Source: a virus | DNA length: 36,690 nt | Virus genome (UHGV): UHGV-0304565 | Direction: 5' to 3' (one strand) | Shown: in pieces, positions 1 through 31,719 of the stretch | Layout of the letters: each line of letters begins with the position of its first letter | How positions within the stretch are numbered: position 1 is the first letter of the stretch | Made by a program: the position numbers and the translations under genes | Notes under the pieces: model-generated | Told to the model about the DNA's origin: nothing | Database searches by the model: none | What the model saw: the letters and a program-made list of their open reading frames with translations, nothing else

Positions 1-19
1 TTAAACAACCTCTGTTCGC

Positions 20-47
20 AATGCCCGGCAACACGCTGGGCATTTTC
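20..47 (+). terminator. Possible intrinsic terminator at the window edge
   Basis: Inverted repeat aatgccc (21-27) / gggcatt (39-45) followed by tttt. Alternative reading: start of a minus-strand ORF (ATG at 47-49) running off the left edge. Confidence 0.3.
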
Positions 48-83
48 ATATAGACACAATCCCTCCTGATTTACACAAGCCCT

Positions 84-98
84 AAAACAATTTGTTTT
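84..98. promoter_or_regulatory. Palindromic element AAAACAA-T-TTGTTTT (early-region operator-like site, copy 1)
   Basis: Perfect 7-bp inverted repeat with 1-bp spacer, read directly; member of a recurring family. Confidence 0.45.
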
Positions 99-116
99 CT
101 ACCTTTTGTTGATTGA

Positions 117-148
117 GATAATAAGCCACATAAGAAAACAAATTGTTT
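117..148 (+). promoter_or_regulatory. Putative early promoter: -10 GATAAT (117-122) plus palindrome AAAACAA-A-TTGTTT (135-148)
   Basis: -10-like hexamer 13 nt upstream of the palindrome, same spacing as at 2621-2655, 3104-3139 and 4773-4805; directly upstream of SD taggag and ATG 160. Confidence 0.45.
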
Positions 149-159
149 AGGAGATGAAG

Positions 160-402
160 ATGTTTGGAACAGCAAAAGAAATCATCGAGAAACTGAAAAA
201 CTATCCAGAAGACGAACCCTTACTCATGGTTATGTGGCACAAAGAAGATATTGCTGAAGTAAGGACAGATCTCACTGATGAACAATGCGTACAGGTGATG
301 CAAAAAATCAGACAATGCCATAACGCTGATGTCGGCGTTAATTGGGAGGTTATATCAACTACGGCGAATGAGTTGTTTCCGAACGGGGTGGTAAAATGCT
401 GA
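160..402 (+). CDS. Hypothetical early protein (80 aa)
   Basis: ORF track 154..402; ATG 160 preferred because SD taggag (148-153) abuts ATG 154 but sits 6 nt before ATG 160. No recognisable motif. Confidence 0.6.
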   Translation: MFGTAKEIIEKLKNYPEDEPLLMVMWHKEDIAEVRTDLTDEQCVQVMQKIRQCHNADVGVNWEVISTTANELFPNGVVKC

Positions 403-584
403 AACTCACCAAATTGTATAAGACGACAGTTAGTAGCCCTACCCTCGTTACACAGCATGGCTCTGAGTGTCTACCAAATATCTGTTTCGAGCACCATACG
501 ATCTCGGACTCAATTGGGTACAGAAACGGAGTATGGGGGAGTCAGGGGAGGGAAGAAAAGCTGCGTGATTACGGTGCCACATAG
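396..584 (+). CDS. Hypothetical protein (62 aa), start overlaps previous stop (ATGCTGA)
   Basis: ORF track entry; GGGGTGG SD-like sequence 6 nt upstream; start/stop overlap suggests translational coupling. No motif support. Confidence 0.3.
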   Translation: MLKLTKLYKTTVSSPTLVTQHGSECLPNICFEHHTISDSIGYRNGVWGSQGREEKLRDYGAT

Positions 585-696
585 CAAACCATCAAGAACA
601 TTCGAAAGGTGCTCGATGTAGGATTTGATGCGGTACAATTCCACCCTGACGCTGAAATAGACGATGGTCTGGAAAATTGGAAATTGTGAGGGATAA

Positions 697-1095
697 ATGA
701 AATATGCACCATTGGCACTAATATTTTTTGTGCTTTCTGCTAATGCCACGCCAGTTGAAGAGCCTAACACTATCGTGTACCCACGATGCATGAAAATAGA
801 TCCGGAAACACACAAGCAATTACCTGGTTACAATATTGTTATGGATATAGGGAATAAATTTAAAATCGTTTCCCCAAATGGGAATTCGGTGATATCCATC
901 TCGCTTGCCCAAAGTGAAAAAGATAGGAACATGTTCGACGCCTCAGTCGGCGATGTTTACTTCTCTCGTTACCATGTTCAACCTGATGGGAACTTTCTAT
1001 ACTCAGCCTGGAGTGAAAAGGCGAAAGTTACAGTGCTGTGTAATGGTAAAAGCGGTGAGCGGCATTACGTTGACCCTATTCATTTCGAGAACTGA
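697..1095 (+). CDS. Hypothetical secreted protein with Sec-type signal peptide (132 aa)
   Basis: N-terminus MKYAPLALIFFVLSANA-TPV: hydrophobic core plus A-x-A signal-peptidase site; SD gaggg upstream. Confidence 0.6.
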   Translation: MKYAPLALIFFVLSANATPVEEPNTIVYPRCMKIDPETHKQLPGYNIVMDIGNKFKIVSPNGNSVISISLAQSEKDRNMFDASVGDVYFSRYHVQPDGNFLYSAWSEKAKVTVLCNGKSGERHYVDPIHFEN

Positions 1096-1303
1096 CTACA
1101 CAAGTAAACAAATCAATCAGTTGATAATGGCGGTCACAATTTGATTCTTTCTATAAGAATCCGTTGATCGCCACTACTCTCCTTCCATACCTGCAACCAC
1201 ACCTTTAAATATCAATAGGTTAACGTTGTTTATACCAATAAGAAAACAACTAAATAACAGATCAACGAAACGTCAACGCTTTCACCCGATTTGGTCTAAA
1301 AAA

Positions 1304-1333
1304 TTGACGTTTTCACACACCACTGCTTATACC
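1304..1333 (+). promoter_or_regulatory. Putative sigma70-type promoter (-35 TTGACG, 18-nt spacer, -10 TATACC)
   Basis: Hexamers read directly at 1304-1309 and 1328-1333; it faces into the A+C-rich tract. Confidence 0.4.
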
Positions 1334-1505
1334 CGTAATTCTACGCAGCAGACAGCGCCACAGCGTCCAATTTTCACCACAGACGACCCAACACACTACC
1401 AACAAAAACACACGCTCAAAATCGCTCCCGTTGCGTTACATAACCATATAAACAACTTATTTTCAGGTATAACAAAACAACCAAATAACACATATGCCAT
1501 TACCA

Positions 1506-1590
1506 AAAACAACCAACCTCTTTATGGCAGGCTACCGAAAAGACCCACCTCTTCTTCCCAGGCTACCGGACAACCAACCTAACTTTCACA
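1506..1590. repeat. Copy A of a degenerate ~80-bp repeat (ACCAACCTCTT ... CAGGCTACCG ... ACCCACCT ... GGCTACCG ... AACTTTCAC)
   Basis: Aligns by eye at roughly 80 percent identity with 4683-4755. Confidence 0.5.
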
Positions 1591-2088
1591 GGCAATTCGA
1601 AACTTCCATACGCGCGATACCCACGACACGCCATTACCCAAACAGCGAAGAAACACCAGAATCACTGAAACCCCAACGAAGCCTGTAACCGCAAGGTTTC
1701 TCTCAATCCCAAAAGACACGAAACATAACAATCACGGGAAACGCCATTACCCAATACACGAATAACTACAAAAGCCCTTCACACACTCCAGACAAACAAC
1801 TCAAACACAATAACGAAAACAATCGCCCACCTGCCATTACTCCATATACGGAGAAGAACAATCACCAAAACGACGAGAACACCCCATAGAATAACCACCG
1901 CAAAACGAACGAAACCACATACACCGACAGAGAAAACAACACACCCAATTCACCAACAGAAATAGTCGCCGTATAGAACATTCTGGAAGGAGTGAGCATT
2001 AACGCCTATAGAGAGGTTGAGACAGATAAAACACGAAGAAAACACAACATGTATAGCGAAGAAGCCAGGTATGTATAAGTGGGGAGGG

Positions 2089-2113
2089 AAGGAGGGGTGT
2101 CGCCTCCTTTTTC
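2089..2113 (+). terminator. Intrinsic terminator
   Basis: Stem aaggagg (2089-2095) / cctcctt (2103-2109), 7-nt loop, T-run 2108-2112. Confidence 0.55.
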
Positions 2114-2175
2114 GTATTTATTCAACTACTGATTTTATCCCCCGTAACACCCCTACGGTCAGCCTTCGGTCCATA

Positions 2176-2310
2176 CAGGGAAAAGGCTGCATCCCGCTAC
2201 AGAAACGGCTGGGTTGCCTTCGGGGAACGGCTGGAGGTTTTCAGGGAAACGGTCGAGTTGCCTGTGTGGATTTCGGGAAAAGGCTCGATGCCGGTTCAGG
2301 AACGGCGGCG
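2176..2310. repeat. Iteron-like array A: six copies of cAGGGAAAcGGCTg-type repeats
   Basis: Copies start at 2176, 2199, 2221, 2242, 2274, 2297 (spacings 23, 22, 21, 32, 23 bp), roughly two helical turns apart. Confidence 0.6.
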
Positions 2311-2620
2311 TACCGGTATAGCGAGAGGGAGAGTTGCGGCTACCCACCTGTAATGTGCGGGAAGAAGAGAGGCGCTCACGTAGGCGGACTTGCTTACCGC
2401 TGGATTCCCTCTGAATGCCCAGCTACAGCGTAATTGTGCCAGAGAGTCAGCGGGTCACAATCGATTTCAGTAGGTTTTCGGGGAGAGGATTATTCTGCCC
2501 ACCAGCCACCTTCGGCCACTAAATCAGAATAATGTAAAAAGTGTTCTCGGTACTGAACCTGAAAACTCACTGCCAAAACCACATTCACCGGAATAAAATC
2601 CTTTTTCGCCTTTGCGTTAT

Positions 2621-2655
2621 TGCGATAATAACGCCAACAAGAAAACATGTTGTTT
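2621..2655 (+). promoter_or_regulatory. Early promoter-operator module: extended -10 TGcGATAAT (2621-2629) plus palindrome AAAACA-tg-TTGTTT (2642-2655)
   Basis: About 35 bp (CGATAATwAACrCCAACAAGAAAACA..TTGTT) is shared with 4772-4805. Confidence 0.5.
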
Positions 2656-2667
2656 AAGGATTGCTTT

Positions 2668-2997
2668 ATGTTTGCAAATATCGACATCAACCAAATCAAG
2701 AAATTAACTCAAAAAGAGTTTGATCAGTTTTATGAGTTAGAAGGTTGGTCTTCCACTCTGATTAATTCGCGGTGGGTGCTTGAGCTGATGACTCGTGATG
2801 ACGCACCTGCTTTGATGATTTGCGACATGGGTGAAGATGCTGACTTTATGGATATGAGCGAATTTTGTGTGGACACATACAACCGCAGCCAGAAGTACTA
2901 CTTCACATGCGATAGCGAGAATGACGTGATTTCTAAGGTCTATCTTCACCTTGTCCAGCATTGGGACGTTCAGGAGTTTCTTGAAGTATTCGCGTAA
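2668..2997 (+). CDS. Hypothetical strongly acidic early protein (109 aa)
   Basis: ORF track 2647..2997; ATG 2668 preferred (SD aagga 2655-2659, 8-nt spacing; ATG 2647 lies inside the palindrome). About 20 percent D+E. Confidence 0.55.
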   Translation: MFANIDINQIKKLTQKEFDQFYELEGWSSTLINSRWVLELMTRDDAPALMICDMGEDADFMDMSEFCVDTYNRSQKYYFTCDSENDVISKVYLHLVQHWDVQEFLEVFA

Positions 2998-3103
2998 CCT
3001 CAACCAAAGCCAGCATTGCTGGCTTAACTTCTCTGTGGCCGCAGGGAAGAACCTGCATATCGCTCATGCACCTGATCAATATGCTTTGTAGCCGTTTTCT
3101 TAC

Positions 3104-3139
3104 TGGTATTATTTACGCCATTGAGAAAACAAGTTGTTT
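3104..3139 (+). promoter_or_regulatory. Early promoter-operator module: extended -10 TGgTATTAT (3104-3112) plus palindrome AAAACAA-G-TTGTTT (3126-3139)
   Basis: Same -10-to-palindrome spacing as the other copies. Confidence 0.45.
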
Positions 3140-3150
3140 ACGGAGTTGTG

Positions 3151-3462
3151 ATGAAGAAATCATTGGTTCTTGGTCTGGACAAAGACCAGAAGAGAAAAGA
3201 GAAGCCTGCGCTGGTTGCTCAATTAACTTTGCTGGACATCGTTGCCAATGGAACCTCTATTCGTCTGTTCCGTGAAACAGCGGTGTCTTTCGATAAAAAC
3301 ACCTTTACTCGTTATGTAATGAATGTTCGTCGCCAGCGTGGAAAAGGCTGGGTGGCATTTCAAAGAATGTGGCCGGAACATCAGCTCGAACTGGCTTTGA
3401 TGGAAGTTAACCGCGTGGCCCAGCAAGAAATTCAGAGAGCATCAGTGATGGCAATAGCCTGA
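3151..3462 (+). CDS. Hypothetical early protein (103 aa)
   Basis: ORF track 3121..3462 starts on TTG inside the palindrome; ATG 3151 with SD acggag preferred. Confidence 0.5.
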   Translation: MKKSLVLGLDKDQKRKEKPALVAQLTLLDIVANGTSIRLFRETAVSFDKNTFTRYVMNVRRQRGKGWVAFQRMWPEHQLELALMEVNRVAQQEIQRASVMAIA

Positions 3463-3496
3463 TAATGTGCAAGTGGTAATTAGTCGACAGTACGAC

Positions 3497-3524
3497 AGCC
3501 CCGCCATCCTTACGGGGCTTTTTG
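3497..3524 (+). terminator. Intrinsic terminator
   Basis: Stem agccccg (3497-3503) / cggggct (3513-3519), 9-nt loop, T-run 3519-3523. Confidence 0.7.
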
Positions 3525-3587
3525 TATTGTAAGTACATACTTACGGTTATAAAATAGAAAAATAACCAAGACACTACGGAGAGTGAA

Positions 3588-3983
3588 ATGACCGTTAAAC
3601 GCGAAAAACTGACAGTTGATGTTTACTATGCCTCTGAAACCGCCGAAGGTAAGAATGTGGCAAAAATCACCGTTGTTACGTACAACACCGAAACTGGTGC
3701 CGAAGTCCAGGCCAGTACGATCGTGCGTAAAGGTGATGCCTCCGGCGGCGAGTACGCGACTCAATACCAGTCTATTTTCGATGCAACTGACCCGCTGCTG
3801 CTGAAAATCGAGAACTACTTCCGCCAGGTTGATGAAGAGGTGTTTGAAACCATGATGAATATGGTTAACACCGTATTCGCCTCCAGCCTGAATACCAACA
3901 CTACCTGGATTGGTCAGTACGGCCTGCGCATTACCTCCGGCATTCCTGCTGACACCTTAATCCCTGAAAGCGTATTCGCTTAA
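3588..3983 (+). CDS. Hypothetical early protein (131 aa)
   Basis: Strong SD ggagag 6 nt before ATG; flanked by terminators on both sides. Confidence 0.65.
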   Translation: MTVKREKLTVDVYYASETAEGKNVAKITVVTYNTETGAEVQASTIVRKGDASGGEYATQYQSIFDATDPLLLKIENYFRQVDEEVFETMMNMVNTVFASSLNTNTTWIGQYGLRITSGIPADTLIPESVFA

Positions 3984-3992
3984 TCCTCTTTA

Positions 3993-4020
3993 AATGGCGC
4001 GTAAACCGCGCCATTTTCTT
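3993..4020 (+). terminator. Intrinsic terminator
   Basis: Stem aatggcgcg (3993-4001) / cgcgccatt (4007-4015), loop taaac, then ttttctt. Confidence 0.7.
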
Positions 4021-4027
4021 ATGCCCG

Positions 4028-4042
4028 ATAACAATTTGTTTT
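4028..4042. promoter_or_regulatory. Palindromic element AtAACAA-T-TTGTTTT
   Basis: Family member upstream of the 4101 gene. Confidence 0.4.
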
Positions 4043-4100
4043 CTGCCTTATCTGATTTGTGAAAATGATTTCACTGAAGCAACTTAATAAGGAAACCATC

Positions 4101-4475
4101 ATGGGGCTTGATATCTACATCGAGACGCAGCCAAAAAACGATCTGAATAACGATACATCCAGAAAGCGGGTTGCTTACTTCCGTAAGTTCAATGCACTCG
4201 TTGGGTGGATGGAGCGCAACGTAGGTGAAGTCGAAAATTGTGAGCTTTTAGAATTAACGATGAATGACATTTGTCTTCTGAAAGCTCATTTGATGCACAT
4301 AAACGAAAGTAATTGCGAAGAGTACTTGCCTACCCGGGAAGGTTTTTTCTTCGGCAGTCAGGAGTACGATGAAGGTTACTGGCATGATGTGGGGGAGTTG
4401 AAAGAGCTTGTGGAAGATCTGATTAAGAACCACGACTTTCACAATAACAGACTGACCTTCTGCGCCTGGTGGTAA
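4101..4475 (+). CDS. Hypothetical early protein (124 aa)
   Basis: ORF track 4059..4475; ATG 4101 preferred (SD aagga 4090-4094, 6-nt spacing). Confidence 0.55.
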   Translation: MGLDIYIETQPKNDLNNDTSRKRVAYFRKFNALVGWMERNVGEVENCELLELTMNDICLLKAHLMHINESNCEEYLPTREGFFFGSQEYDEGYWHDVGELKELVEDLIKNHDFHNNRLTFCAWW

Positions 4476-4477
4476 AT

Positions 4478-4621
4478 ATGGGCGATTTCAAGAAACGCCT
4501 GAAGGAAAGAGCCGAGATGGTCAGAAAGCAAAACGCCTCTTCTGTCATCAGATACGCAAGGCAGTTTAGTCGCAACAACAAATCAGTTGAGGAAAAGATC
4601 CTTAGCGTAATCGGTCGATAA
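4478..4621 (+). CDS. Possible small protein (47 aa), absent from the ORF track
   Basis: ATG 2 nt after the previous stop; GGTGG 5 nt upstream; followed by hairpin aaggcca/tggcctt (4627-4650). Below the 60-aa track cutoff. Confidence 0.25.
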   Translation: MGDFKKRLKERAEMVRKQNASSVIRYARQFSRNNKSVEEKILSVIGR

Positions 4622-4682
4622 TTATTAAGGCCATCAGCATTGGTGGCCTTAAATGACCATCCTGTTTCCCGCAGGCTAAAAA

Positions 4683-4755
4683 CACCAACCTCTTACCTCC
4701 AGGCAACCGACAAACCCACCTGTTCCCGTCCGGCTACCGCAACTTTCCACTTTGA
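4683..4755. repeat. Copy B of the degenerate ~80-bp repeat
   Basis: See 1506-1590. Confidence 0.5.
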
Positions 4756-4805
4756 CGCCTTATTCGTACAACGATAATTAACACCAACAAGAAAACAATT
4801 TGTTA
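4752..4805 (+). promoter_or_regulatory. Early promoter-operator module: -35 TTGACG (4752-4757), -10 GATAAT (4773-4778), palindrome AAAACAA-T-TTGTTA (4792-4805)
   Basis: Hexamers and palindrome read directly; 15-nt spacer is suboptimal. Confidence 0.5.
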
Positions 4806-4825
4806 TTTACGATAAGGAATTAATC

Positions 4826-5308
4826 ATGAATTTTATCGCTACTGTAAACGCACCCGCACATGGCAATATCGCTGTAACGTTCTCTGACATTGAAAAACGA
4901 GTACTTGGTGCATGGCGCGACAATGAGACGGTAGAACTGTCAGCACAAGAAAAATGCATTATTGCACGCGACATCATTTGTAATTGTCGTTACTCGCGGG
5001 TAATTGAGAAAGCGTATGTGGTAAATTCTGGATTCGGAACGTTCGTCTTTCCGGTGCGCTCCGGGCGATTCTGCCAGTCCAAGCTGATTGAGTTCGCTAC
5101 GCAGATTTCTGTCTGGATTAAAACTCAATCGTCGTTCAAATTTTCCGACGATGAAGCATTATCGCAGGGGATGCGGATCGCCAACAATGCAATTAAATGC
5201 AAAAACATTACGTATACCGCTGGCGTTGATACATGGAAACTGTTTTGCGCTAACTTTATGCTGAATGTATACGCAAGCAACCGCATCCACATCCTTGATG
5301 GCGTGTAA
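4826..5308 (+). CDS. Hypothetical early protein (160 aa)
   Basis: SD aagga 7 nt before ATG; weak hairpin plus ttctct downstream (5319-5343). Confidence 0.6.
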   Translation: MNFIATVNAPAHGNIAVTFSDIEKRVLGAWRDNETVELSAQEKCIIARDIICNCRYSRVIEKAYVVNSGFGTFVFPVRSGRFCQSKLIEFATQISVWIKTQSSFKFSDDEALSQGMRIANNAIKCKNITYTAGVDTWKLFCANFMLNVYASNRIHILDGV

Positions 5309-5343
5309 CTGAGAAGAGGGCCAGAAACGGCCCTTTCTCTATA

Positions 5344-5475
5344 GCCACCAGCTGCCGCAGGGAAATTTTCAGAAACGGCGAGGAACGTATTCATGAGCCG
5401 ACGGGGAACGGCCAGGATTTTTTCGGGAAACGGCTGCATTCGCCTTTATATAGAAAAAACATCGGGAAGCTGGTG
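5344..5475. repeat. Iteron-like array B (GGGAAACGGC-type repeats) flanked by inverted Chi-like octamers
   Basis: Repeat copies at 5359, 5370, 5381, 5402, 5424, 5463 (11/22-bp phasing); CCACCAGC at 5344-5351 and GCTGGTGG at 5468-5475. Confidence 0.55.
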
Positions 5476-7374: not shown

Positions 7375-7896
7375 TTAAAACGGAAGGATTCGTTCAACCC
7401 AATCGAAGAAAATAAGTATTTTTCTACCGTCTTCCAACTTAAGTGTGACTAGACAGGCGTCAACGCCATCTGACGTTCCCTCAATTTCGCGACCGTCTGC
7501 CATGTAGACCCTTATAGATTTGCCGTTTTGGTAAGCCTGACGACATATCTTAAAAAAGTCACGACGTGATGGCTGATTAACCATCTGTTCATTGTTTAGC
7601 GTTAGTCGACCTGTGAATGAAGTGTCAACCTCTTCTATGCCCGACTCAATTGTGCTAATGCGCTCAAGAGGGAGCCTTATACGATTTGTGTTGCTAAGCG
7701 GATCTGGTGTGAGGTTCAGCTTATTTCTTGCGCTCAATAGCCCGTAGACATACATGCAAAACACTTGGCCGTCTTCGAGAGTGACTCTTACAGGAAATTT
7801 TGCACTCCGCCAGAAGAGCAAGGTGCGCTCAGCATGTTCGTAGTCTCGCGGCCAGACTTCAGCCGGTATGCCGTAGGTGATGTCCAATGTTCTCAT
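7375..7896 (-). CDS. Hypothetical protein (173 aa)
   Basis: Start overlaps the stop of the upstream gene (ATGA); hairpin aataaccgg/ccggttatt downstream at 7338-7365. Confidence 0.55.
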   Translation of the reverse strand: MRTLDITYGIPAEVWPRDYEHAERTLLFWRSAKFPVRVTLEDGQVFCMYVYGLLSARNKLNLTPDPLSNTNRIRLPLERISTIESGIEEVDTSFTGRLTLNNEQMVNQPSRRDFFKICRQAYQNGKSIRVYMADGREIEGTSDGVDACLVTLKLEDGRKILIFFDWVERILPF

Positions 7897-8666: not shown

Positions 8667-8945
8667 TTACGGCAGTTTGCTTAGAATTTGCTCTAAATCT
8701 TCCTTTGTCATATTAGAGTTCTCATAGATGCGCATGATTTTCTCACGAGCCTTAGCAGAGACTCCAACGGCAGATGAAACTTTGTCAAATTCAGCCATTG
8801 TCATCGCTTCCAGAATGGTATTGATAACTTCAGCCTTAGACATTTTGATGTTTTTTTCTTTTAGTTTCATTTGAAACTTTCCAAGTTTGTCATTGGCCTT
8901 ATCGGACAATGCCACCTGACAATAAGTTGTTTTCTTTTCGCTCAT
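8667..8945 (-). CDS. Hypothetical small protein (92 aa), possible DNA-binding regulator
   Basis: Starts 2 nt after the helicase stop; hairpin plus T-run downstream on the minus strand (8588-8612). Confidence 0.5.
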   Translation of the reverse strand: MSEKKTTYCQVALSDKANDKLGKFQMKLKEKNIKMSKAEVINTILEAMTMAEFDKVSSAVGVSAKAREKIMRIYENSNMTKEDLEQILSKLP

Positions 8946-10507: not shown

Positions 10508-10552
10508 AAACCTCTTTCCTTAGTGCCTTTTGTATGTTATTTGGCTATTATA

Positions 10553-10572
10553 ATAAGTAAGTGATTACTTAG
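10553..10572. promoter_or_regulatory. ATAAGTAA-family motif with inverted repeat (AGTAA-gtga-TTACT) in the divergent intergenic region
   Basis: Read directly; adjacent TATAAT at 10548-10553. Confidence 0.4.
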
Positions 10573-13725: not shown

Positions 13726-13992
13726 ATGACGTTAACCGATAAACAAAAGGACATCATCAAAACGCTCAATCTCGGTTATGAGCGAGGTCATCTACTTGAC
13801 CTGGACGAATTGCTTGAAGTTTTGCCGTACAAGACAACCAAGCAAAGTATCCAGTTCTCAATTCGCGCTCTGATAAAAAAGGGGCTGGTGGAGAAAGGGC
13901 ATACGCGCCAACGCAGTGACAATCGCTATCACCGCCGAACTCTTGGGTTAACTACTTTAGGTCGAGCCAAAGCGAAGTTACTGGTGATGTAA
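13726..13992 (+). CDS. Small basic protein (88 aa), possible winged-helix DNA-binding regulator
   Basis: SD aagga 7 nt upstream; segment SIQFSIRALIKKGLVEKG resembles MarR/PadR-type recognition helices (pattern judgement). Confidence 0.45.
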   Translation: MTLTDKQKDIIKTLNLGYERGHLLDLDELLEVLPYKTTKQSIQFSIRALIKKGLVEKGHTRQRSDNRYHRRTLGLTTLGRAKAKLLVM

Positions 13993-14016: not shown

Positions 14017-14071
14017 CCTGCTTCTGTATATATAAATAATAAGTAACTTATTAAATATATACGGAAGCAGG
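14017..14071. promoter_or_regulatory. Long near-perfect palindrome (about 18-bp arms) centred on AATAAGTAACTTATT
   Basis: Left arm cctgcttctgtatatata (14017-14034) against right arm tatatacggaagcagg (14056-14071), one mismatch. Confidence 0.5.
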
Positions 14072-14108
14072 CTTCGTAAGACATGCCAGACCTAATTAAA
14101 CACCCCAG

Positions 14109-14148
14109 AAAACAAGTTGGTTAGCAGATGCAGTAAACAAGTTGTTTT
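14109..14148. promoter_or_regulatory. Two tandem AAAACAA-G-TTGkTT palindromes upstream of the terminase genes
   Basis: Copies at 14109-14122 and 14134-14148, same family as the early-region operators. Confidence 0.45.
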
Positions 14149-14187
14149 AGAGCGCATGGACGCGCTCTGTGTGTTTTAGAGGGATCT

Positions 14188-14820
14188 ATGACGGTCGAAA
14201 AAGACGAGGTAAAAACTCGCCTGACACCAGCGGAGTGGGCCGAAGCTGAAGCCAAATGGACGTCAGGCGAATATACACTCTCAAAGCTGGAGGAAGAGTA
14301 CGGCATTCGTCGTGAAACACTCTCCAGACATTTCAAAAAGCGAGGATTAGAGAAAGGCGCGGACTCTGTTGGGAAGATGGTTCGTGAGTCTCTTAAATCT
14401 GACGCAGAGCTTCGCGCTAAAGCCCGTGCGGAAAAGATAGAAGAACGTCGTACACGTTATGACGGCTGGGCGTATGCGTTGGGGCAGATGGTGATGGTCG
14501 AAGTCACTACGGCCAAACGTGAGGGTAAGCCTTTAGGGGCGATTGAGGATTCTCTCAAGAGCTTACAGAGAGCCAGTAATACCCTTGCAAAATGCTTTGA
14601 AGTTTCGTCCAAAGCATTGGGCATGGATCATGCGGAAAATGACGAGGAAGAAATTCCGAACCTGGTATTTGGTGAGCTTACGCCTTCCCAGGTGGCGAAA
14701 TTACGTCAGGAAGACGACGAGCCTGAAATCATCGATGACGAATTGCTTGAGACGTTGGAAGAAGAAACTCTAAGCGAATTTGATGCGACAGATGATGGAA
14801 GTGAAGGGGAGGACGAATAA
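14188..14820 (+). CDS. terS: Terminase small subunit (putative)
   Basis: Position immediately upstream of terL with 1-nt stop/start overlap; N-terminal HTH-like segment; acidic C-terminus. Confidence 0.6.
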   Translation: MTVEKDEVKTRLTPAEWAEAEAKWTSGEYTLSKLEEEYGIRRETLSRHFKKRGLEKGADSVGKMVRESLKSDAELRAKARAEKIEERRTRYDGWAYALGQMVMVEVTTAKREGKPLGAIEDSLKSLQRASNTLAKCFEVSSKALGMDHAENDEEEIPNLVFGELTPSQVAKLRQEDDEPEIIDDELLETLEEETLSEFDATDDGSEGEDE

Positions 14821-16076
14821 TGGCAATCCCGTCCTCGCTCAGTCTTGTGCAACTGCATTCTGGACAGATGAAAGTCTTCCAGTCTCCGCATCGATTTAAA
14901 GTTGTTTGTGCTGGTCGACGCTGGGGAAAATCCCGGTTGTCGATCTCCACTATTATTCGTGCGGCGGCAAAGGAAAAAAAGCAAAGGGTCTGGTATGTCG
15001 CTCCTACTTACCAGATGGCTCGCCAGATTTTGTGGGACGATCTACAGGAAGTTCTGCCTCGTAAGTGGGTTAGGAAAAAGAACGACACCACGATGACAAT
15101 CGTGTTGAAGAACGGTTCGGAGATCGCCCTCAAAGGTGCTGATAAGCCTGACACTCTGCGCGGCGTAGCGTTGCATTTTGTAGTGCTTGATGAATTTCAG
15201 GATATGAAGGCTGACACCTGGTACAAGGTGTTACGACCTACTCTTTCATCGACACGCGGCGGTGCACTGATCATTGGTACGCCAAAAGGCTTCTCGGAAT
15301 TTCACAAACTGTGGACTATAGGCCAGAACGTAGAGCTGCAAAGAAAGGGACAGTGGAAGAGCTGGCAGTTTGTAACTGCCGATTCTCCGTTTGTGCCTAC
15401 GGCGGAAATTGAAGCTGCTAAGAACGATATGGACCCCAAATCGTTCGCTCAGGAGTACCTGGCCAGCTTTGAGAACATGTCCGGGCGCGTTTACTACCCG
15501 TTCGATCGTAACGTGCATGTAAAACCGCTTCAGTTCAACCCTCGGTTGCCTATATGGGTAGGGCAGGACTTCAACATTGACCCGATGTCTTCAGTAATTT
15601 TGCAACCTCAGCCAAATGGTGAGCTATGGGCAATTGATGAATTGGTGCTCTTTTCCTCTAACACGGCAGAAGTTTGTGATGAGCTTGAGAGACGCTTCTG
15701 GCGCTGGAAATCACAGGTAACGGTATTTCCAGATCCGGCAGGTGCTTATCGCCAACATGCTCGTGGGGAGTCTGACGTAGACATATTCAAAGAGAAGGGA
15801 TTCTTACGTGTCGATTATTCGAAAAAGCACCCGCCAATTGCGGATCGTGTTAATGCTGTTAACCGAATGCTGATGTCCGCATCTGGAGATATCCGGCTGT
15901 ATATCGATCCGAAGTGCAAGCATTTGATTGATTCACTGGAAAAAGTCATCTACAAGCCTGGAACACGAGATATGGATAAGACAGGTGGCATTGAGCATAG
16001 TGCAGACGCATTGGGCTATCCAGTACATCGTAGGTATCCAGTCAAAAACCGTGTTATTCTTGGTGGTTCTCGGTAG
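14820..16076 (+). CDS. terL: Terminase large subunit
   Basis: P-loop GRRWGKS, Walker B HFVVLDEF, C-terminal nuclease-like region; position before portal. Confidence 0.85.
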   Translation: MAIPSSLSLVQLHSGQMKVFQSPHRFKVVCAGRRWGKSRLSISTIIRAAAKEKKQRVWYVAPTYQMARQILWDDLQEVLPRKWVRKKNDTTMTIVLKNGSEIALKGADKPDTLRGVALHFVVLDEFQDMKADTWYKVLRPTLSSTRGGALIIGTPKGFSEFHKLWTIGQNVELQRKGQWKSWQFVTADSPFVPTAEIEAAKNDMDPKSFAQEYLASFENMSGRVYYPFDRNVHVKPLQFNPRLPIWVGQDFNIDPMSSVILQPQPNGELWAIDELVLFSSNTAEVCDELERRFWRWKSQVTVFPDPAGAYRQHARGESDVDIFKEKGFLRVDYSKKHPPIADRVNAVNRMLMSASGDIRLYIDPKCKHLIDSLEKVIYKPGTRDMDKTGGIEHSADALGYPVHRRYPVKNRVILGGSR

Positions 16077-16092
16077 GTAAGTAATTATCTAA
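16077..16092. promoter_or_regulatory. ATAAGTAA-family motif (GTAAGTAATTATCTAA) upstream of portal
   Basis: Read directly. Confidence 0.35.
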
Positions 16093-29649: not shown

Positions 29650-30348
29650 ATGGGAATAAAAGCTGATATTCAGAGCTTATCTCCCTCTGCACTCATTGAG
29701 TTGTTCGTACTGGATATGTCGAACACAACTTCAGGGGGGAAGCTATTCTTCCACGCCGGAACAAACGAACTGATGCAACCGGTTGTCTGGCAAGGAGTGA
29801 CATACGAGCCGTGGCCAATCAAAGCATCAGGCTTTGACAAAACGGGTCAGGGAACGTTACCACGTCCAAAAATTCAGGTATCGAACTTTGCCGGAACCGT
29901 CTCTGCGGAAGTTCAGGCAAACGACGATCTTGTTGGCTGCCGCATTATTCGCAAGATGACGCTGGCTCGCTTCCTCGATGCCGTTAATTTTAAAGATGGC
30001 AACCCAACAGCAGATCCAAACCAACATTTCCCGGATGAAATGTGGTTTATCGAACAGAAAACTCTCGAAACTCATCAGGTTGTCGAGTTTGAATTGTCCA
30101 GTGTGTTCGATTTGATGGGGGTGCAACTGCCGTATCGTCAGATCATTAAAAACACCTGCCCGTGGAAATACCGAGGGCCAGAATGCGGCTATACCGGCCC
30201 ATATTTCGACAAAAATAACCAGCAGACGTCTATGTCTGGTGCTGATTACTGCACAAAACGTTATGACGCCTGTAATGCGCGTCGGAATTATTTTGCCAAC
30301 GGAGTGATCCATTTTGGCGGATTTATTGGAGCTACGCGGTATGGGTAA
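29650..30348 (+). CDS. L: Minor tail protein L
   Basis: ARFLDAVNF, WQG, CGYTGP and FGGF segments match lambda L; ATG 29650 with SD aagga preferred over track start 29617. Confidence 0.8.
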   Translation: MGIKADIQSLSPSALIELFVLDMSNTTSGGKLFFHAGTNELMQPVVWQGVTYEPWPIKASGFDKTGQGTLPRPKIQVSNFAGTVSAEVQANDDLVGCRIIRKMTLARFLDAVNFKDGNPTADPNQHFPDEMWFIEQKTLETHQVVEFELSSVFDLMGVQLPYRQIIKNTCPWKYRGPECGYTGPYFDKNNQQTSMSGADYCTKRYDACNARRNYFANGVIHFGGFIGATRYG

Positions 30349-31138: not shown

Positions 31139-31719
31139 TTCATGTGCAGCTTGGCGGCCCTATGGCCAAACATTTTGGCCGCCACTGGCATCTAAAGGTG
31201 CGTAATACAAAACAGGCTCTGGATTTAATTGAGGCTAACAAGCCTGGGTTTAAAGCATGGATGAAGCGCAACATCAAAACCTATGACAGATACCACATCC
31301 AGATCACCAATAAACAGGGTCACAAGTGGTCTGTGGACGAGAGTGAATATCAGATGATGGGGCAGTCTGACAACATTGCCAAAATACGCATTACCCCTGT
31401 TCCGCGAGGGAGCGGCGGATCTGCTTTTGGGTGGTTTCAGACGGTAGTAGGGGCCGCTTTGTTGGTTGTATCGGCGGTAATGATGCCTGCTTTAGCACCT
31501 CTCGGTTTGTCACTGATGATGGGCGGTATATCACAAATCATATCGCCGCAAGCCACTAACGAAAGTGTGAGGCAAGCGGATAATTCGAACTCATATTATT
31601 TCGACGGCCCTCAAAATACAGAAAACCAGGGAAACCCAGTACAACTTATCTACGGCGAGGAAATTCTGGTTGGCTCACAGGTTGTGAGTTCTTCAATCAC
31701 GATTGACCAGCTAATGTAA
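31126..31719 (+). CDS. I: Tail assembly protein I-like
   Basis: GTG start with SD gggag, overlaps the end of K; position between K and J; hydrophobic segment mid-protein. Confidence 0.6.
   Translation: MSELVHVQLGGPMAKHFGRHWHLKVRNTKQALDLIEANKPGFKAWMKRNIKTYDRYHIQITNKQGHKWSVDESEYQMMGQSDNIAKIRITPVPRGSGGSAFGWFQTVVGAALLVVSAVMMPALAPLGLSLMMGGISQIISPQATNESVRQADNSNSYYFDGPQNTENQGNPVQLIYGEEILVGSQVVSSSITIDQLM

What the first reader, a model, noticed from the sequence alone, without database searches (positions are those of the whole stretch)
84..4805. Recurring early promoter-operator module: GATAAT-type -10 followed about 13 nt later by the palindrome AAAACAA-n-TTGTTTT
The palindrome occurs at 84-98, 135-148, 2642-2655, 3126-3139, 4028-4042 and 4792-4805, each time 10-60 nt upstream of a start codon. 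In at least four cases a -10-like hexamer (GATAAT at 117, TGcGATAAT at 2621, TGgTATTAT at 3104, GATAAT at 4773) lies 13-14 nt upstream, placing the palindrome at about +5 to +20 of the predicted transcript. Two modules (2624-2655 and 4772-4805) share about 35 bp. This indicates one regulator controlling a family of early promoters.
Basis: seen in the sequence. Interest (0 to 1): 0.6.

Follow-up and report, generated by a model that had tools for sequence, protein, structure and literature searches.

The report
Genome-wide operator palindrome of SSU5-like phage-plasmids
The repeated palindrome is real: it is a conserved protein-binding site at fixed positions around many promoters of a plasmid-like temperate phage common in E. 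coli, Salmonella, Klebsiella and Yersinia, and it most likely lets one phage repressor keep most lytic genes off, although that repressor is not identified.

Summary
All six palindromes and four -10 hexamers are at the stated coordinates. The window is 97% identical to Escherichia phage Cyrano, an SSU5-like phage-plasmid.

Matches of at least 12/14 to AAAACAAnTTGTTTT number 10 in the window (shuffles 0.6). Whole relatives hold 15-21 each (shuffles about 1). Sites lie at orthologous positions in Cyrano, SSU5, Klebsiella pJN2-26 and Yersinia pMT1, and nearly all are intergenic.

The geometry is fixed. The -10 hexamer ends 19-21 nt before the palindrome centre, which puts the site at about +14. 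A second class, including 84 and 4028, is centred at -38 of TGnGATAAT promoters. Paired sites lie exactly 51 bp apart.

The two arms degenerate independently, with no compensatory changes. The central base is random and the RNA does not fold. This fits a dyad-symmetric double-stranded DNA operator.

The first genes behind these promoters are at background in a Cyrano lysogen. Sites also precede terS, parA, helicase, cobT and nrdB, so "early promoters" is too narrow.

The regulator is unidentified. A lysogen-expressed 92-aa protein with a ribbon-helix-helix (RHH)-like sequence pattern (8667-8945) is my leading guess. The conserved FljA homologue (7375-7896) models as a tandem Sm/Hfq fold, so it is a poor duplex-DNA candidate.

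This is a new member of a known kind, of moderate interest.

The parts
84..98 (.). Class-A palindrome, upstream type (AAAACAATTTGTTTT followed by CT). Its centre is about -38 relative to the TGaGATAAT promoter.
   Evidence: Perfect 14/14 match. It lies 51 bp centre-to-centre from site 135. The same pair occurs in Cyrano, SSU5 and IMG/VR relatives.
114..122 (+). Extended -10 element TGaGATAAT of the promoter for gene 160-402.
   Evidence: Read from the sequence.
135..149 (+). Class-A palindrome, downstream type (AAG-AAAACAAATTGTTTA). Its centre is about +14, and the Shine-Dalgarno sequence AGGAG follows directly.
160..402 (+). First gene cassette, an 80-aa protein of unknown function. ATG 160 has better spacing from the Shine-Dalgarno sequence than ATG 154.
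1449..1463 (.). Class-A site (12/14) inside the long non-coding A/C-rich stretch.
   Evidence: It is conserved in Cyrano 94604, SSU5 90739 and pJN2-26 25868.
2621..2656 (+). Module: TGcGATAAT, then aacgccaacaag, then AAAACATGTTGTTTA.
2668..2997 (+). Cassette gene of 109 aa. The likely start is ATG 2668, after the Shine-Dalgarno sequence AAGGA.
3104..3140 (+). Module: TGgTATTAT, then ttacgccattgag, then AAAACAAGTTGTTTA.
   Evidence: The footprint is conserved across four genomes.
3151..3462 (+). Cassette gene of 103 aa.
4028..4042 (.). Class-A palindrome, upstream type (ATAACAATTTGTTTT followed by CT), centred at about -38.
4057..4065 (+). Extended -10 element TGtGAAAAT of the promoter for gene 4101-4475.
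4101..4475 (+). Cassette gene of 124 aa.
4773..4806 (+). Module: GATAAT, then taacaccaacaag, then AAAACAATTTGTTAT.
4826..5308 (+). Cassette gene of 160 aa (phrog_1641).
14092..14148 (+). terS control region: a -10-like CTAATT (14092-14097) and two class-A sites 25 bp apart (14109-14123 and 14134-14148).
   Evidence: The region is conserved in Cyrano, SSU5 and pMT1. pJN2-26 has a single site here.
14148..14178 (+). Terminator-like hairpin with a T-run, between the class-A sites and the terS Shine-Dalgarno sequence.
14188..14820 (+). Small terminase subunit gene, the first gene of the late operon.
8667..8945 (-). 92-aa protein with an RHH-like sequence pattern, orthologous to CYRAN_117. It is a candidate regulator. 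A 12/14 class-A-like site at 8919-8933 lies in its first codons.
   Evidence: Its expression in the lysogen is 114 against a median of 9.8.
7375..7896 (-). FljA-family protein (PF03614), a core gene of SSU5-like elements. It is an alternative candidate that would act on RNA.
13726..13992 (+). 88-aa winged-helix-like protein directly upstream of the terS control region. It is a minor candidate.
   Evidence: It is at background in the lysogen.

Best explanation
The palindrome AG-AAAACAA-n-TTGTTTT-CT is most likely the operator of one dyad-symmetric, sequence-specific protein that binds double-stranded DNA and is encoded by the SSU5-like phage-plasmid itself.

Operators sit at two fixed places around sigma-70 promoters whose main element is a good or extended -10 (TGnGATAAT). 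One place is centred at about +14, between the start site and the ribosome-binding site. The other is centred at about -38, where a -35 hexamer would lie. The strongest promoters carry both, exactly 51 bp apart and arranged as a larger inverted repeat around the -10.

Bound protein would block RNA polymerase binding at -38 and promoter escape or early elongation at +14. Pairs may be bridged. About 15-20 such sites per 105-110 kb genome put the accessory-gene cassettes (window 1-5400), replication and nucleotide genes, parA and the terminase/late operon under one repressor. In the plasmid-prophage state these promoters are off.

Shown here: the sites, their statistics, their geometry, their conservation, the lack of RNA-type covariation, and the silence of the downstream genes in a lysogen.

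Inferred: the transcription starts, that a protein binds, the sign of regulation, and the regulator's identity. My ranking for the regulator is the lysogen-expressed 92-aa RHH-like protein at 8667-8945 (about 0.3), a CYRAN_45-type HTH repressor (about 0.15), the small winged-helix proteins (about 0.15), and other or unknown for the rest.
For: - Enrichment is 10- to 35-fold over dinucleotide shuffles in four genomes.
- 18 of 19 Cyrano sites are intergenic and upstream of + strand genes.
- Geometry is fixed. The -10-like hexamer ends at -21 to -19 from the centre in 23 of 28 contexts, against about 14% in controls. Upstream-type sites lie at -38, and the pair spacing is 51 bp in the window, Cyrano, SSU5, pMT1 and IMG/VR relatives.
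- Symmetry without pairing constraint. There are 58 one-sided deviations from consensus, of which 5 still pair, plus 1 compensatory change. The central base is A11/C10/G10/T9.
- RNA folds of the leaders are no better than shuffles, at -1 to -4 kcal/mol.
- About 20% of sites lie upstream of the adjacent promoter and just after terminators, so that promoter does not transcribe them.
- Phylogenetic footprints: upstream of helicase, cobT, nrdB, parA and terS, the palindrome stays fixed while the flanks diverge between E. coli, Salmonella and Klebsiella elements.
- In LF82(Cyrano) RNA-seq, the first genes behind class-A sites read 5.7-25.5 (median about 7.5) against a prophage median of 9.8. Only parA reaches 50, despite near-consensus -10 elements.
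- Genes expressed in the lysogen (CYRAN_26/27, 43, 45, 50/51, 63, 99, 117) have no class-A site upstream.
Against: - No transcription start, footprint or binding experiment exists for any SSU5-like element.
- No regulator gene carries an obvious autoregulatory class-A operator.
- The regulator cannot be named from homology. The 92-aa model has low confidence (pLDDT 62.6) with no fold-search match, and its hhalign match to CopG gives only E 0.014.
- Silence in a lysogen would also follow if the promoters needed an activator.
- Many module copies are paralogous or orthologous, so site counts overstate the number of independent events.
- SSU5 lacks the CYRAN_45 repressor but keeps all sites. pMT1 lacks the ParG-like protein but keeps its sites. 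Neither of those two proteins can be the universal binder unless the sites are relics in those elements.
Confidence: 0.6

Rival explanations
1. The element works in RNA. Most copies lie in very short 5' leaders directly before the ribosome-binding site. The conserved FljA-family protein (7375-7896) would bind there and block translation, as FljA does on fliC mRNA in Salmonella.
For: - A full-length PF03614 protein (E 1.4e-68) is present in every complete SSU5-like phage record and in 831 plasmids.
- FljA is reported to prevent fliC mRNA translation (PMC2652032, citing Yamamoto and Kutsukake 2006).
- 39 of 65 sites are of the downstream type, and at most of those inspected the ribosome-binding site follows within a few bases.
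- The Salmonella/Citrobacter fliC leader carries ACATCAAGTTGTAAT, a 10/14 match, just upstream of its Shine-Dalgarno sequence.
Against: - Reverse-complement symmetry of the arms has no rationale for recognition of single-stranded RNA.
- No stable hairpin forms, and there is no compensatory covariation.
- 11 of 65 sites lie at -38, after terminators, including the perfect 14/14 site at 84.
- The distance to the -10 is fixed, whereas the distance to the start codon varies from 10 to about 60 nt.
- The fliC similarity is weak (roughly p 0.02-0.05), and the E. coli K-12 fliC leader lacks it.
- The FljA homologue is only about 2-fold above background in the lysogen.
Confidence: 0.12
2. The palindrome is a positive-control element. 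It would be part of a phage-specific promoter class that fires only when a phage activator or modified RNA polymerase is present, for example one of the small winged-helix proteins. The promoters would then be silent in lysogens for lack of that factor.
For: - Several sites (helicase, terS, nrdB, tciA-like) have only weak -10-like hexamers such as CTAATT or CACAAT and no -35. The standard sigma-70 scan finds none of the modules.
- In the cassette modules the whole 35-75 bp block, including the -10-to-palindrome spacer CCAACAAG, is conserved.
- The downstream genes are silent in the lysogen.
- Two conserved winged-helix-like proteins are not expressed in the lysogen.
Against: - Activators rarely work from +14.
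- Many modules carry near-consensus extended -10 elements (TGcGATAAT, TGgTATTAT), some with TTGACG-like -35 elements. Such promoters should fire unaided.
- The same palindrome occurs at -38 and at +14 in opposite orientation, which fits occlusion better than a directional promoter element.
- At non-paralogous sites only the palindrome is conserved.
- No phage sigma factor or RNA polymerase is annotated, although I did not search for one exhaustively.
Confidence: 0.1
3. A host DNA-binding protein shared by E. coli, Salmonella, Klebsiella and Yersinia binds the sites. Candidates are IHF or another nucleoid-associated protein, or a dedicated host regulator.
For: - The motif is unchanged across four host genera.
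- It resembles the IHF core WATCAAnnnnTTR, from memory, with two mismatches.
- No phage regulator can be assigned.
Against: - The strict dyad symmetry is unlike IHF sites.
- I could not recall any enterobacterial regulator with this consensus. This was a memory check only.
- An exact-match scan of viral contigs found multi-site loci only in SSU5-like elements. Hits elsewhere were lone chance matches in AT-rich coding DNA.
Confidence: 0.07
4. There is no dedicated regulator. The similarity would reflect spread of one promoter cassette by duplication and recombination in a hyperplastic accessory-gene region, like the promoter-stem-loop cassettes of T4-type phages. The palindrome would be a passenger or a recombination signal.
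For: - Cassettes at 2621-2997, 3104-3462, 4028-4475 and 4773-5308 each consist of promoter, palindrome, ribosome-binding site, small ORF and terminator-like hairpin.
- Variable regions of relatives carry many modules in front of unrelated genes, for example L051 with 10 sites in 11.4 kb of which only 38% is homologous.
Against: - Sites in front of parA, helicase, cobT, nrdB and terS share nothing but the palindrome.
- Half-sites are kept close to consensus over divergence that has randomised the flanks.
- Spacing from the -10 is fixed.

Cassette mobility is compatible with the operator reading and probably accompanies it.
Confidence: 0.05

Closest known systems
P1 C1 repressor and its dispersed operators (phage-plasmid P1)
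   Same: One prophage repressor controls many operators scattered round a roughly 100-kb plasmid-prophage. The operators overlap promoters of replication and other lytic functions (from my knowledge of P1).
   Different: P1 operators are 17-bp asymmetric sites, whereas these are symmetric 15-19-bp palindromes. No C1 homologue was noticed here. Binding is untested.
KorA/KorB global regulons of IncP-1 plasmids and omega of pSM19035
   Same: Short palindromes or repeats recur at many promoters of one replicon, some upstream and some overlapping the promoter, and they coordinate maintenance and other operons. A class-A site also precedes parA.
   Different: The motif differs (KorA GTTTAGCTAAAC, KorB TTTAGCSGCTAAA, from memory). 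The ParG-like RHH partner of ParA is absent from pMT1, which keeps the sites. This is a phage lytic programme and not a conjugative plasmid.
Stoperators of cluster A mycobacteriophages (L5 gp71)
   Same: Dozens of repressor sites lie in short intergenic gaps downstream of start sites and silence the whole genome in lysogeny. A site at +14 could likewise act as a roadblock.
   Different: Stoperators are asymmetric and orientation-dependent, and most are not tied to a promoter. These sites are symmetric and locked to a -10 at fixed distance.
lac O1-type downstream operators and paired operators
   Same: An operator is centred just downstream of the start (+11 in lac, about +14 here). A second operator lies about five helical turns away, which suggests cooperative binding or looping.
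   Different: The spacing is 51 bp and the partner overlaps the -35 position. The protein family is unknown.
Arc/Mnt/CopG/MetJ-type ribbon-helix-helix operators
   Same: Two 7-bp half-sites have centres 8 bp apart, a size and spacing that suit a dimer of RHH dimers. Two lysogen-expressed proteins have RHH-like sequence patterns: window 8667-8945 and Cyrano CYRAN_29.
   Different: The RHH fold is not demonstrated for the 92-aa protein. No binding data exist.
FljA and the fliC leader (Salmonella flagellar phase variation)
   Same: A conserved family member is encoded 2.5 kb from the cassettes. A conserved motif lies just before ribosome-binding sites. The fliC leader has a 10/14 look-alike.
   Different: The evidence here points to recognition of duplex DNA and not of RNA.
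Promoter-early stem-loop cassettes of T4-type phages
   Same: Small accessory genes each carry their own conserved promoter module and terminator, in a variable region.
   Different: Here the conserved element is a protein-type palindrome at fixed promoter positions. It also occurs at core genes.

Membership tests
Repressor-controlled sigma-70 promoter (operator overlapping the core promoter or the early transcribed region) | A recognisable -10 (with or without -35) at a fixed distance from the site | tested here: met
   TGnGATAAT-type elements are present. The hexamer ends 19-21 nt before the centre in 23 of 28 contexts, against about 14% in controls.
Repressor-controlled sigma-70 promoter (operator overlapping the core promoter or the early transcribed region) | Transcription starts mapped at the predicted place | not testable with these tools
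   No 5'-end data are available. The published RNA-seq is reported per gene only.
Repressor-controlled sigma-70 promoter (operator overlapping the core promoter or the early transcribed region) | Downstream genes are off when the regulator is present | tested here: inconclusive
   The genes are at background in the LF82(Cyrano) lysogen. The regulator is unknown and there is no derepressed comparison.
Dyad-symmetric double-stranded DNA operator | Two inverted half-sites that each drift towards the same consensus independently, with an uncontacted centre | tested here: met
   There are 58 one-sided deviations, 1 compensatory change, and a random central base.
Dyad-symmetric double-stranded DNA operator | A protein that binds the site | not testable with these tools
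   Candidates only.
Structured RNA element (hairpin in the 5' leader) | A stable fold better than shuffled sequence | tested here: not met
   Minimum free energy is -1.1 to -4 kcal/mol, with z-scores of -0.7 to +0.9. A 1-nt loop is impossible.
Structured RNA element (hairpin in the 5' leader) | Compensatory base changes | tested here: not met
   1 compensatory change against 58 one-sided changes.
Known RNA families (Rfam) | A match at the gathering score | tested here: not met
   No match anywhere in the window.
FljA-type post-transcriptional control | An FljA-family protein is encoded | tested here: met
   PF03614, E 1.4e-68, full length.
FljA-type post-transcriptional control | The target motif always lies inside the regulated transcript | tested here: not met
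   11 of 65 sites lie at -38, after terminators.
FljA-type post-transcriptional control | The motif matches the FljA site in fliC mRNA | tested here: inconclusive
   There is a 10/14 look-alike in the Salmonella/Citrobacter fliC leader. The papers that define the site are not held.
ParB/KorB- or ParG/omega-type partition protein acting as global regulator | A site is present at the par promoter | tested here: met
   The class-A site upstream of parA is conserved in three genera.
ParB/KorB- or ParG/omega-type partition protein acting as global regulator | The partition protein co-occurs with the sites | tested here: not met
   No ParG-like protein was found in Yersinia pMT1. pMT1 nevertheless keeps 7 sites.
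P1 C1-type regulon | A 17-bp asymmetric operator and a C1 homologue | tested here: not met
   The motif is symmetric. No C1-like protein appears in the annotations seen. No dedicated search was done.
Mobile promoter cassettes (T4 PeSL-like) | A conserved promoter block in front of unrelated small genes in a variable region | tested here: met

The most novel reading that the evidence does not exclude
The regulon might belong to the FljA-family tandem-Sm protein. On this reading the protein grips the A-rich and U-rich motif in the first 20 nt of each message, or in the melted promoter-proximal DNA, and shuts down about 20 phage transcription units. Salmonella's flagellar phase-variation repressor FljA would then be a domesticated copy of this phage global regulator, with the fliC leader mimicking the phage site.
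Probability: 0.1. Interest if true: 0.8.

Novelty: new member of a known kind. Interest (0 to 1): 0.45.

Why it matters
SSU5-like phage-plasmids are the largest group of phage-plasmids in enterobacteria (PMC7969092). The terS-terL region of this element occurs on plasmids in 239 of 5426 complete E. coli genomes. It also occurs in 406 PLSDB plasmids, including Y. pestis pMT1. How these elements keep about 100 kb of lytic genes silent is not described in the literature I could search.

A single 19-bp operator at fixed promoter positions gives a concrete regulatory map. It also gives a bait sequence for finding the repressor. It offers a way to predict which accessory cassettes are prophage-silent, and a handle for inducing or curing these elements.

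Tried and rejected
- RNA hairpin: rejected on folding energies and absence of covariation.
- Known RNA family: none found.
- ParG-like RHH protein (CYRAN_29) as the binder: weakened, because pMT1 lacks it and keeps the sites.
- CYRAN_45 as the binder: weakened. Its own promoter carries a different palindrome, GGTAAGTGCTTACC, and SSU5 lacks the gene yet keeps all class-A sites.
- FljA homologue as a duplex-DNA binder: unlikely given its tandem Sm fold.
- Co-occurrence tests to separate the candidates: these failed. The FljA-like, 92-aa and 88-aa genes are syntenic core genes in every relative found, including a 59%-identity element and a chromosomal copy.
- Search for the motif in unrelated viruses: only lone chance hits turned up, in AT-rich coding DNA.
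- Literature on the FljA binding site: the two key papers are not held. Searches for the motif or for SSU5 regulation found nothing.
- The consensus sigma-70 scan did not detect the modules, because they lack a canonical -35.
- Structure of the 92-aa protein: the model has low confidence and the fold search was uninformative.

Full report
**What the window is.** Bases 1-5400 match Escherichia phage Cyrano at 97% identity over 82% of the query. Cyrano (OV696614, 108 kb) is the phage-plasmid pLF82 of E. coli LF82. Related E. coli and Klebsiella elements match too. Window position 1 corresponds to Cyrano 93030, just after a phage methionyl-tRNA synthetase gene, and the window runs across the Cyrano record ends into the terminase and tail genes. 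Cyrano is an SSU5-like element, maintained as a plasmid at about 5.5 copies and inducible by genotoxic stress (PMC9928086). The setting is therefore a temperate phage-plasmid and not a virulent phage with an "early" class in the T-phage sense.

**Check of the observation.**
- The six palindromes and the four -10 hexamers are at the stated coordinates.
- AAAACAANTTGTTT with up to two mismatches gives 21 strand-matches against 2.64 expected, with 0 of 100 shuffles reaching that.
- Counting at least 12 of 14 matches to AAAACAAnTTGTTTT gives 10 sites in the window against 0.6 in dinucleotide shuffles. Cyrano has 19 against 1.2, SSU5 21 against 0.6 and Klebsiella phage pJN2-26 15 against 0.9.
Two precede terS (14109, 14134), one lies in a non-coding stretch (1449), and one lies in the first codons of a minus-strand gene (8919).

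**Distribution.** In Cyrano, 18 of 19 sites lie between genes. They are upstream of + strand genes:
- terS (two sites), parA, the replicative helicase, cobT and nrdB;
- CYRAN_58, a TciA-like gene, CYRAN_87 and CYRAN_93;
- the run of small cassettes that corresponds to window 1-5400.

SSU5 and pJN2-26 have sites at the orthologous positions. So does Yersinia pestis pMT1. Alignments of orthologous upstream regions show the palindrome, and the -10 where one is present, held constant while the flanks diverge. An exact-match scan of viral contigs returned many SSU5-like contigs with several sites per locus. Outside that group it returned only single chance matches in AT-rich coding DNA.

**Anatomy.**
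- The motif extends to AG-AAAACAA-n-TTGTTTT-CT.
- There are two classes of site. In the downstream class (39 of 65 sites), a -10-like hexamer ends 19-21 nt before the palindrome centre in 23 of the 28 contexts that have such a hexamer. Random positions give about 14%. The centre therefore falls near +14.
- At the downstream-class sites in the window the ribosome-binding site follows within 0-20 nt.
- In the upstream class (11 of 65 sites, including 84 and 4028), the palindrome is centred 38 bp before the start implied by an extended -10 (TGaGATAAT, TGtGAAAAT). It often follows the terminator of the preceding gene directly.
- Where both classes are present (window 84/135; SSU5 88318/88369 and 93661/93712; pMT1 44128/44179; relatives L051, L093 and L101), the centres are exactly 51 bp apart.
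- In each site the half nearer the -10 is the better-conserved one, so a pair forms a larger inverted repeat around the -10.
- The terS region has two sites 25 bp apart, followed by a conserved terminator-like hairpin before the terS ribosome-binding site.

**DNA or RNA?**
- Among 40 distinct 15-mers there are 58 one-sided departures from consensus. Only 5 of these still pair, and there is a single compensatory change. The central base is A11/C10/G10/T9.
- Leaders folded as RNA reach only -1 to -4 kcal/mol, no better than shuffles.
- About a fifth of the sites are not transcribed from the adjacent promoter.
- The distance to the -10 is fixed, while the distance to the start codon varies.

All four points favour a dyad-symmetric protein on duplex DNA. 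They argue against an RNA hairpin or a single-stranded RNA site.

**Sign of regulation.**
- The modules carry good extended -10 elements, and some carry TTGACG-like -35 elements.
- In LF82 overnight cultures the first genes behind class-A sites read 5.7-25.5 normalised counts: CYRAN_1 7.1, 32 21.1, 47 7.8, 58 5.7, 70 12.9, 85 7.0, 87 7.1, 93 6.3, 101 7.5, 105 12.8, 106 12.2, 108 5.7, 110 6.7 and 111 25.5. The prophage median is 9.8. Only parA (49.8) is higher.
- Genes expressed in the lysogen have no class-A site upstream.

Positions at -38 and +14 are classical for occlusion and for blocking escape. I therefore read the palindrome as an operator for a repressor present in the plasmid-prophage state. 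A dependence on an absent activator is not excluded.

**Who binds?** This could not be settled.

- *92-aa protein (8667-8945).* It has a strand-helix-helix sequence pattern like RHH proteins, and hhalign to CopG gives E 0.014 in the expected register. It is a core gene next to the UvsW-like helicase. It is expressed 12-fold above background in the lysogen. Its model has low confidence. A half-site spacing of 8 bp would suit a dimer of RHH dimers.
- *CYRAN_45, the annotated repressor.* It has a different palindrome (GGTAAGTGCTTACC) at its own promoter, and SSU5 has no such gene.
- *CYRAN_29, annotated as a toxin.* It has an RHH signature and follows parA, so it looks like a ParG-type partner. 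pMT1 lacks it and keeps seven sites.
- *Two small winged-helix-like proteins* (13726-13992 and CYRAN_37). They are silent in the lysogen.

All of these genes are syntenic in every relative retrieved, so co-occurrence cannot separate them.

**Comparison with what is known.** The arrangement works like the dispersed operator regulons of plasmid-prophages and large plasmids: P1 C1, IncP KorA/KorB and pSM19035 omega. With respect to the +14 position, it also resembles lac-type downstream operators and mycobacteriophage stoperators. It is not a member of any of those families by sequence. The cassette layout in 1-5400 is promoter, operator, ribosome-binding site, small ORF and terminator-like hairpin. 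Module-rich variable regions occur in relatives. Both recall the mobile promoter cassettes of T4-type phages, and that is compatible with the operator reading. I found no description of this motif or of SSU5-group regulation in the searchable literature.

**Verdict.** I classify this as a new member of a known kind. It has practical value because these elements are common, on plasmids in 239 of 5426 complete E. coli genomes.

Noticed in passing
window 10549-10572, 16076-16089 and 3528-3545; Cyrano 42606-42619: A second genome-wide palindrome, (A)TAGGTAAGTnCTTACCTA(T), occurs about 10 times per genome in intergenic gaps. At the ParB-like operon a variant directly follows a perfect TATAAT. At the CYRAN_45 repressor promoter it follows TAATAT. 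It looks like a second operator class, perhaps that of CYRAN_45. From memory it also fits the SlmA site pattern GTnAGnnCTnAC.
   Followed up: partly
window 1100-2112: About 1 kb lacks any convincing ORF. It is strongly A/C-rich on the + strand, carries repeated GCCATTACC units (1494, 1630, 1743, 1833) and 31-nt tandem units (1507-1600), and contains a class-A site at 1449. It ends at a terminator-like hairpin at 2086-2112. There is no Rfam match. It could be a long non-coding RNA with repeated protein-binding motifs, or an origin-like region. Cyrano annotates two doubtful ORFs here.
   Followed up: partly
window 2150-2500: G-rich direct repeats (GGGAAAAGGCT...AACGGC, for example 2178-2214 and 2275-2311) follow the terminator. 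Their function is unknown.
   Followed up: no
window 14148-14178: A conserved terminator-like hairpin with a T-run lies between the terS promoter and operators and the terS ribosome-binding site, in all four genomes compared. This suggests that late-operon expression needs antitermination or read-through.
   Followed up: partly
window 14017-14071; Cyrano 31157-31213: A 55-bp inverted repeat (CCTGCTTCTGTATATAT...ATATATACGGAAGCAGG) lies upstream of the terS control region. A near-identical repeat lies upstream of CYRAN_31. It could be a bidirectional terminator or a recognition site, for example for packaging.
   Followed up: no
window 7375-7896 (-): The FljA-family protein is predicted to be two tandem Sm/Hfq-like domains, each a helix followed by five strands. 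No solved structure matches it by sequence. If correct, this would account for the RNA-directed action of the flagellar repressor FljA. It also shows that the family is a core gene of SSU5-like phage-plasmids.
   Followed up: partly
Cyrano 29975-30334 (L003): CYRAN_29 is annotated as a RelE/ParE toxin. It has an RHH signature after a basic tail and follows a small ParA, so it looks like a ParG-type centromere-binding protein.
   Followed up: partly
window 2647-2670; Cyrano 95805: The Cyrano annotation starts CYRAN_105 at an ATG inside the palindrome. The ATG at window 2668, seven nt after the Shine-Dalgarno sequence AAGGA, is the more likely start. CYRAN_110 likewise appears to start upstream of its own operator.
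   Followed up: no
window 3009-3023, 3498-3524, 3994-4018, 4627-4650 and 5318-5338: A GC-rich hairpin follows most of the small genes in 2600-5400, so most of these units look monocistronic. The consensus terminator scan flagged none of these five.
   Followed up: no
window 4680-4745 and 1507-1600: Similar CCAACCTCTT...CAGGCTACCG units occur upstream of the 4773 module and inside the non-coding region. This suggests shared repeat material between the two places.
   Followed up: no
L013-L022 (fliC leaders): The Salmonella and Citrobacter fliC leaders are nearly identical and carry ACATCAAGTTGTAAT just before the ribosome-binding site. E. coli K-12 has a different sequence there.
   Followed up: partly
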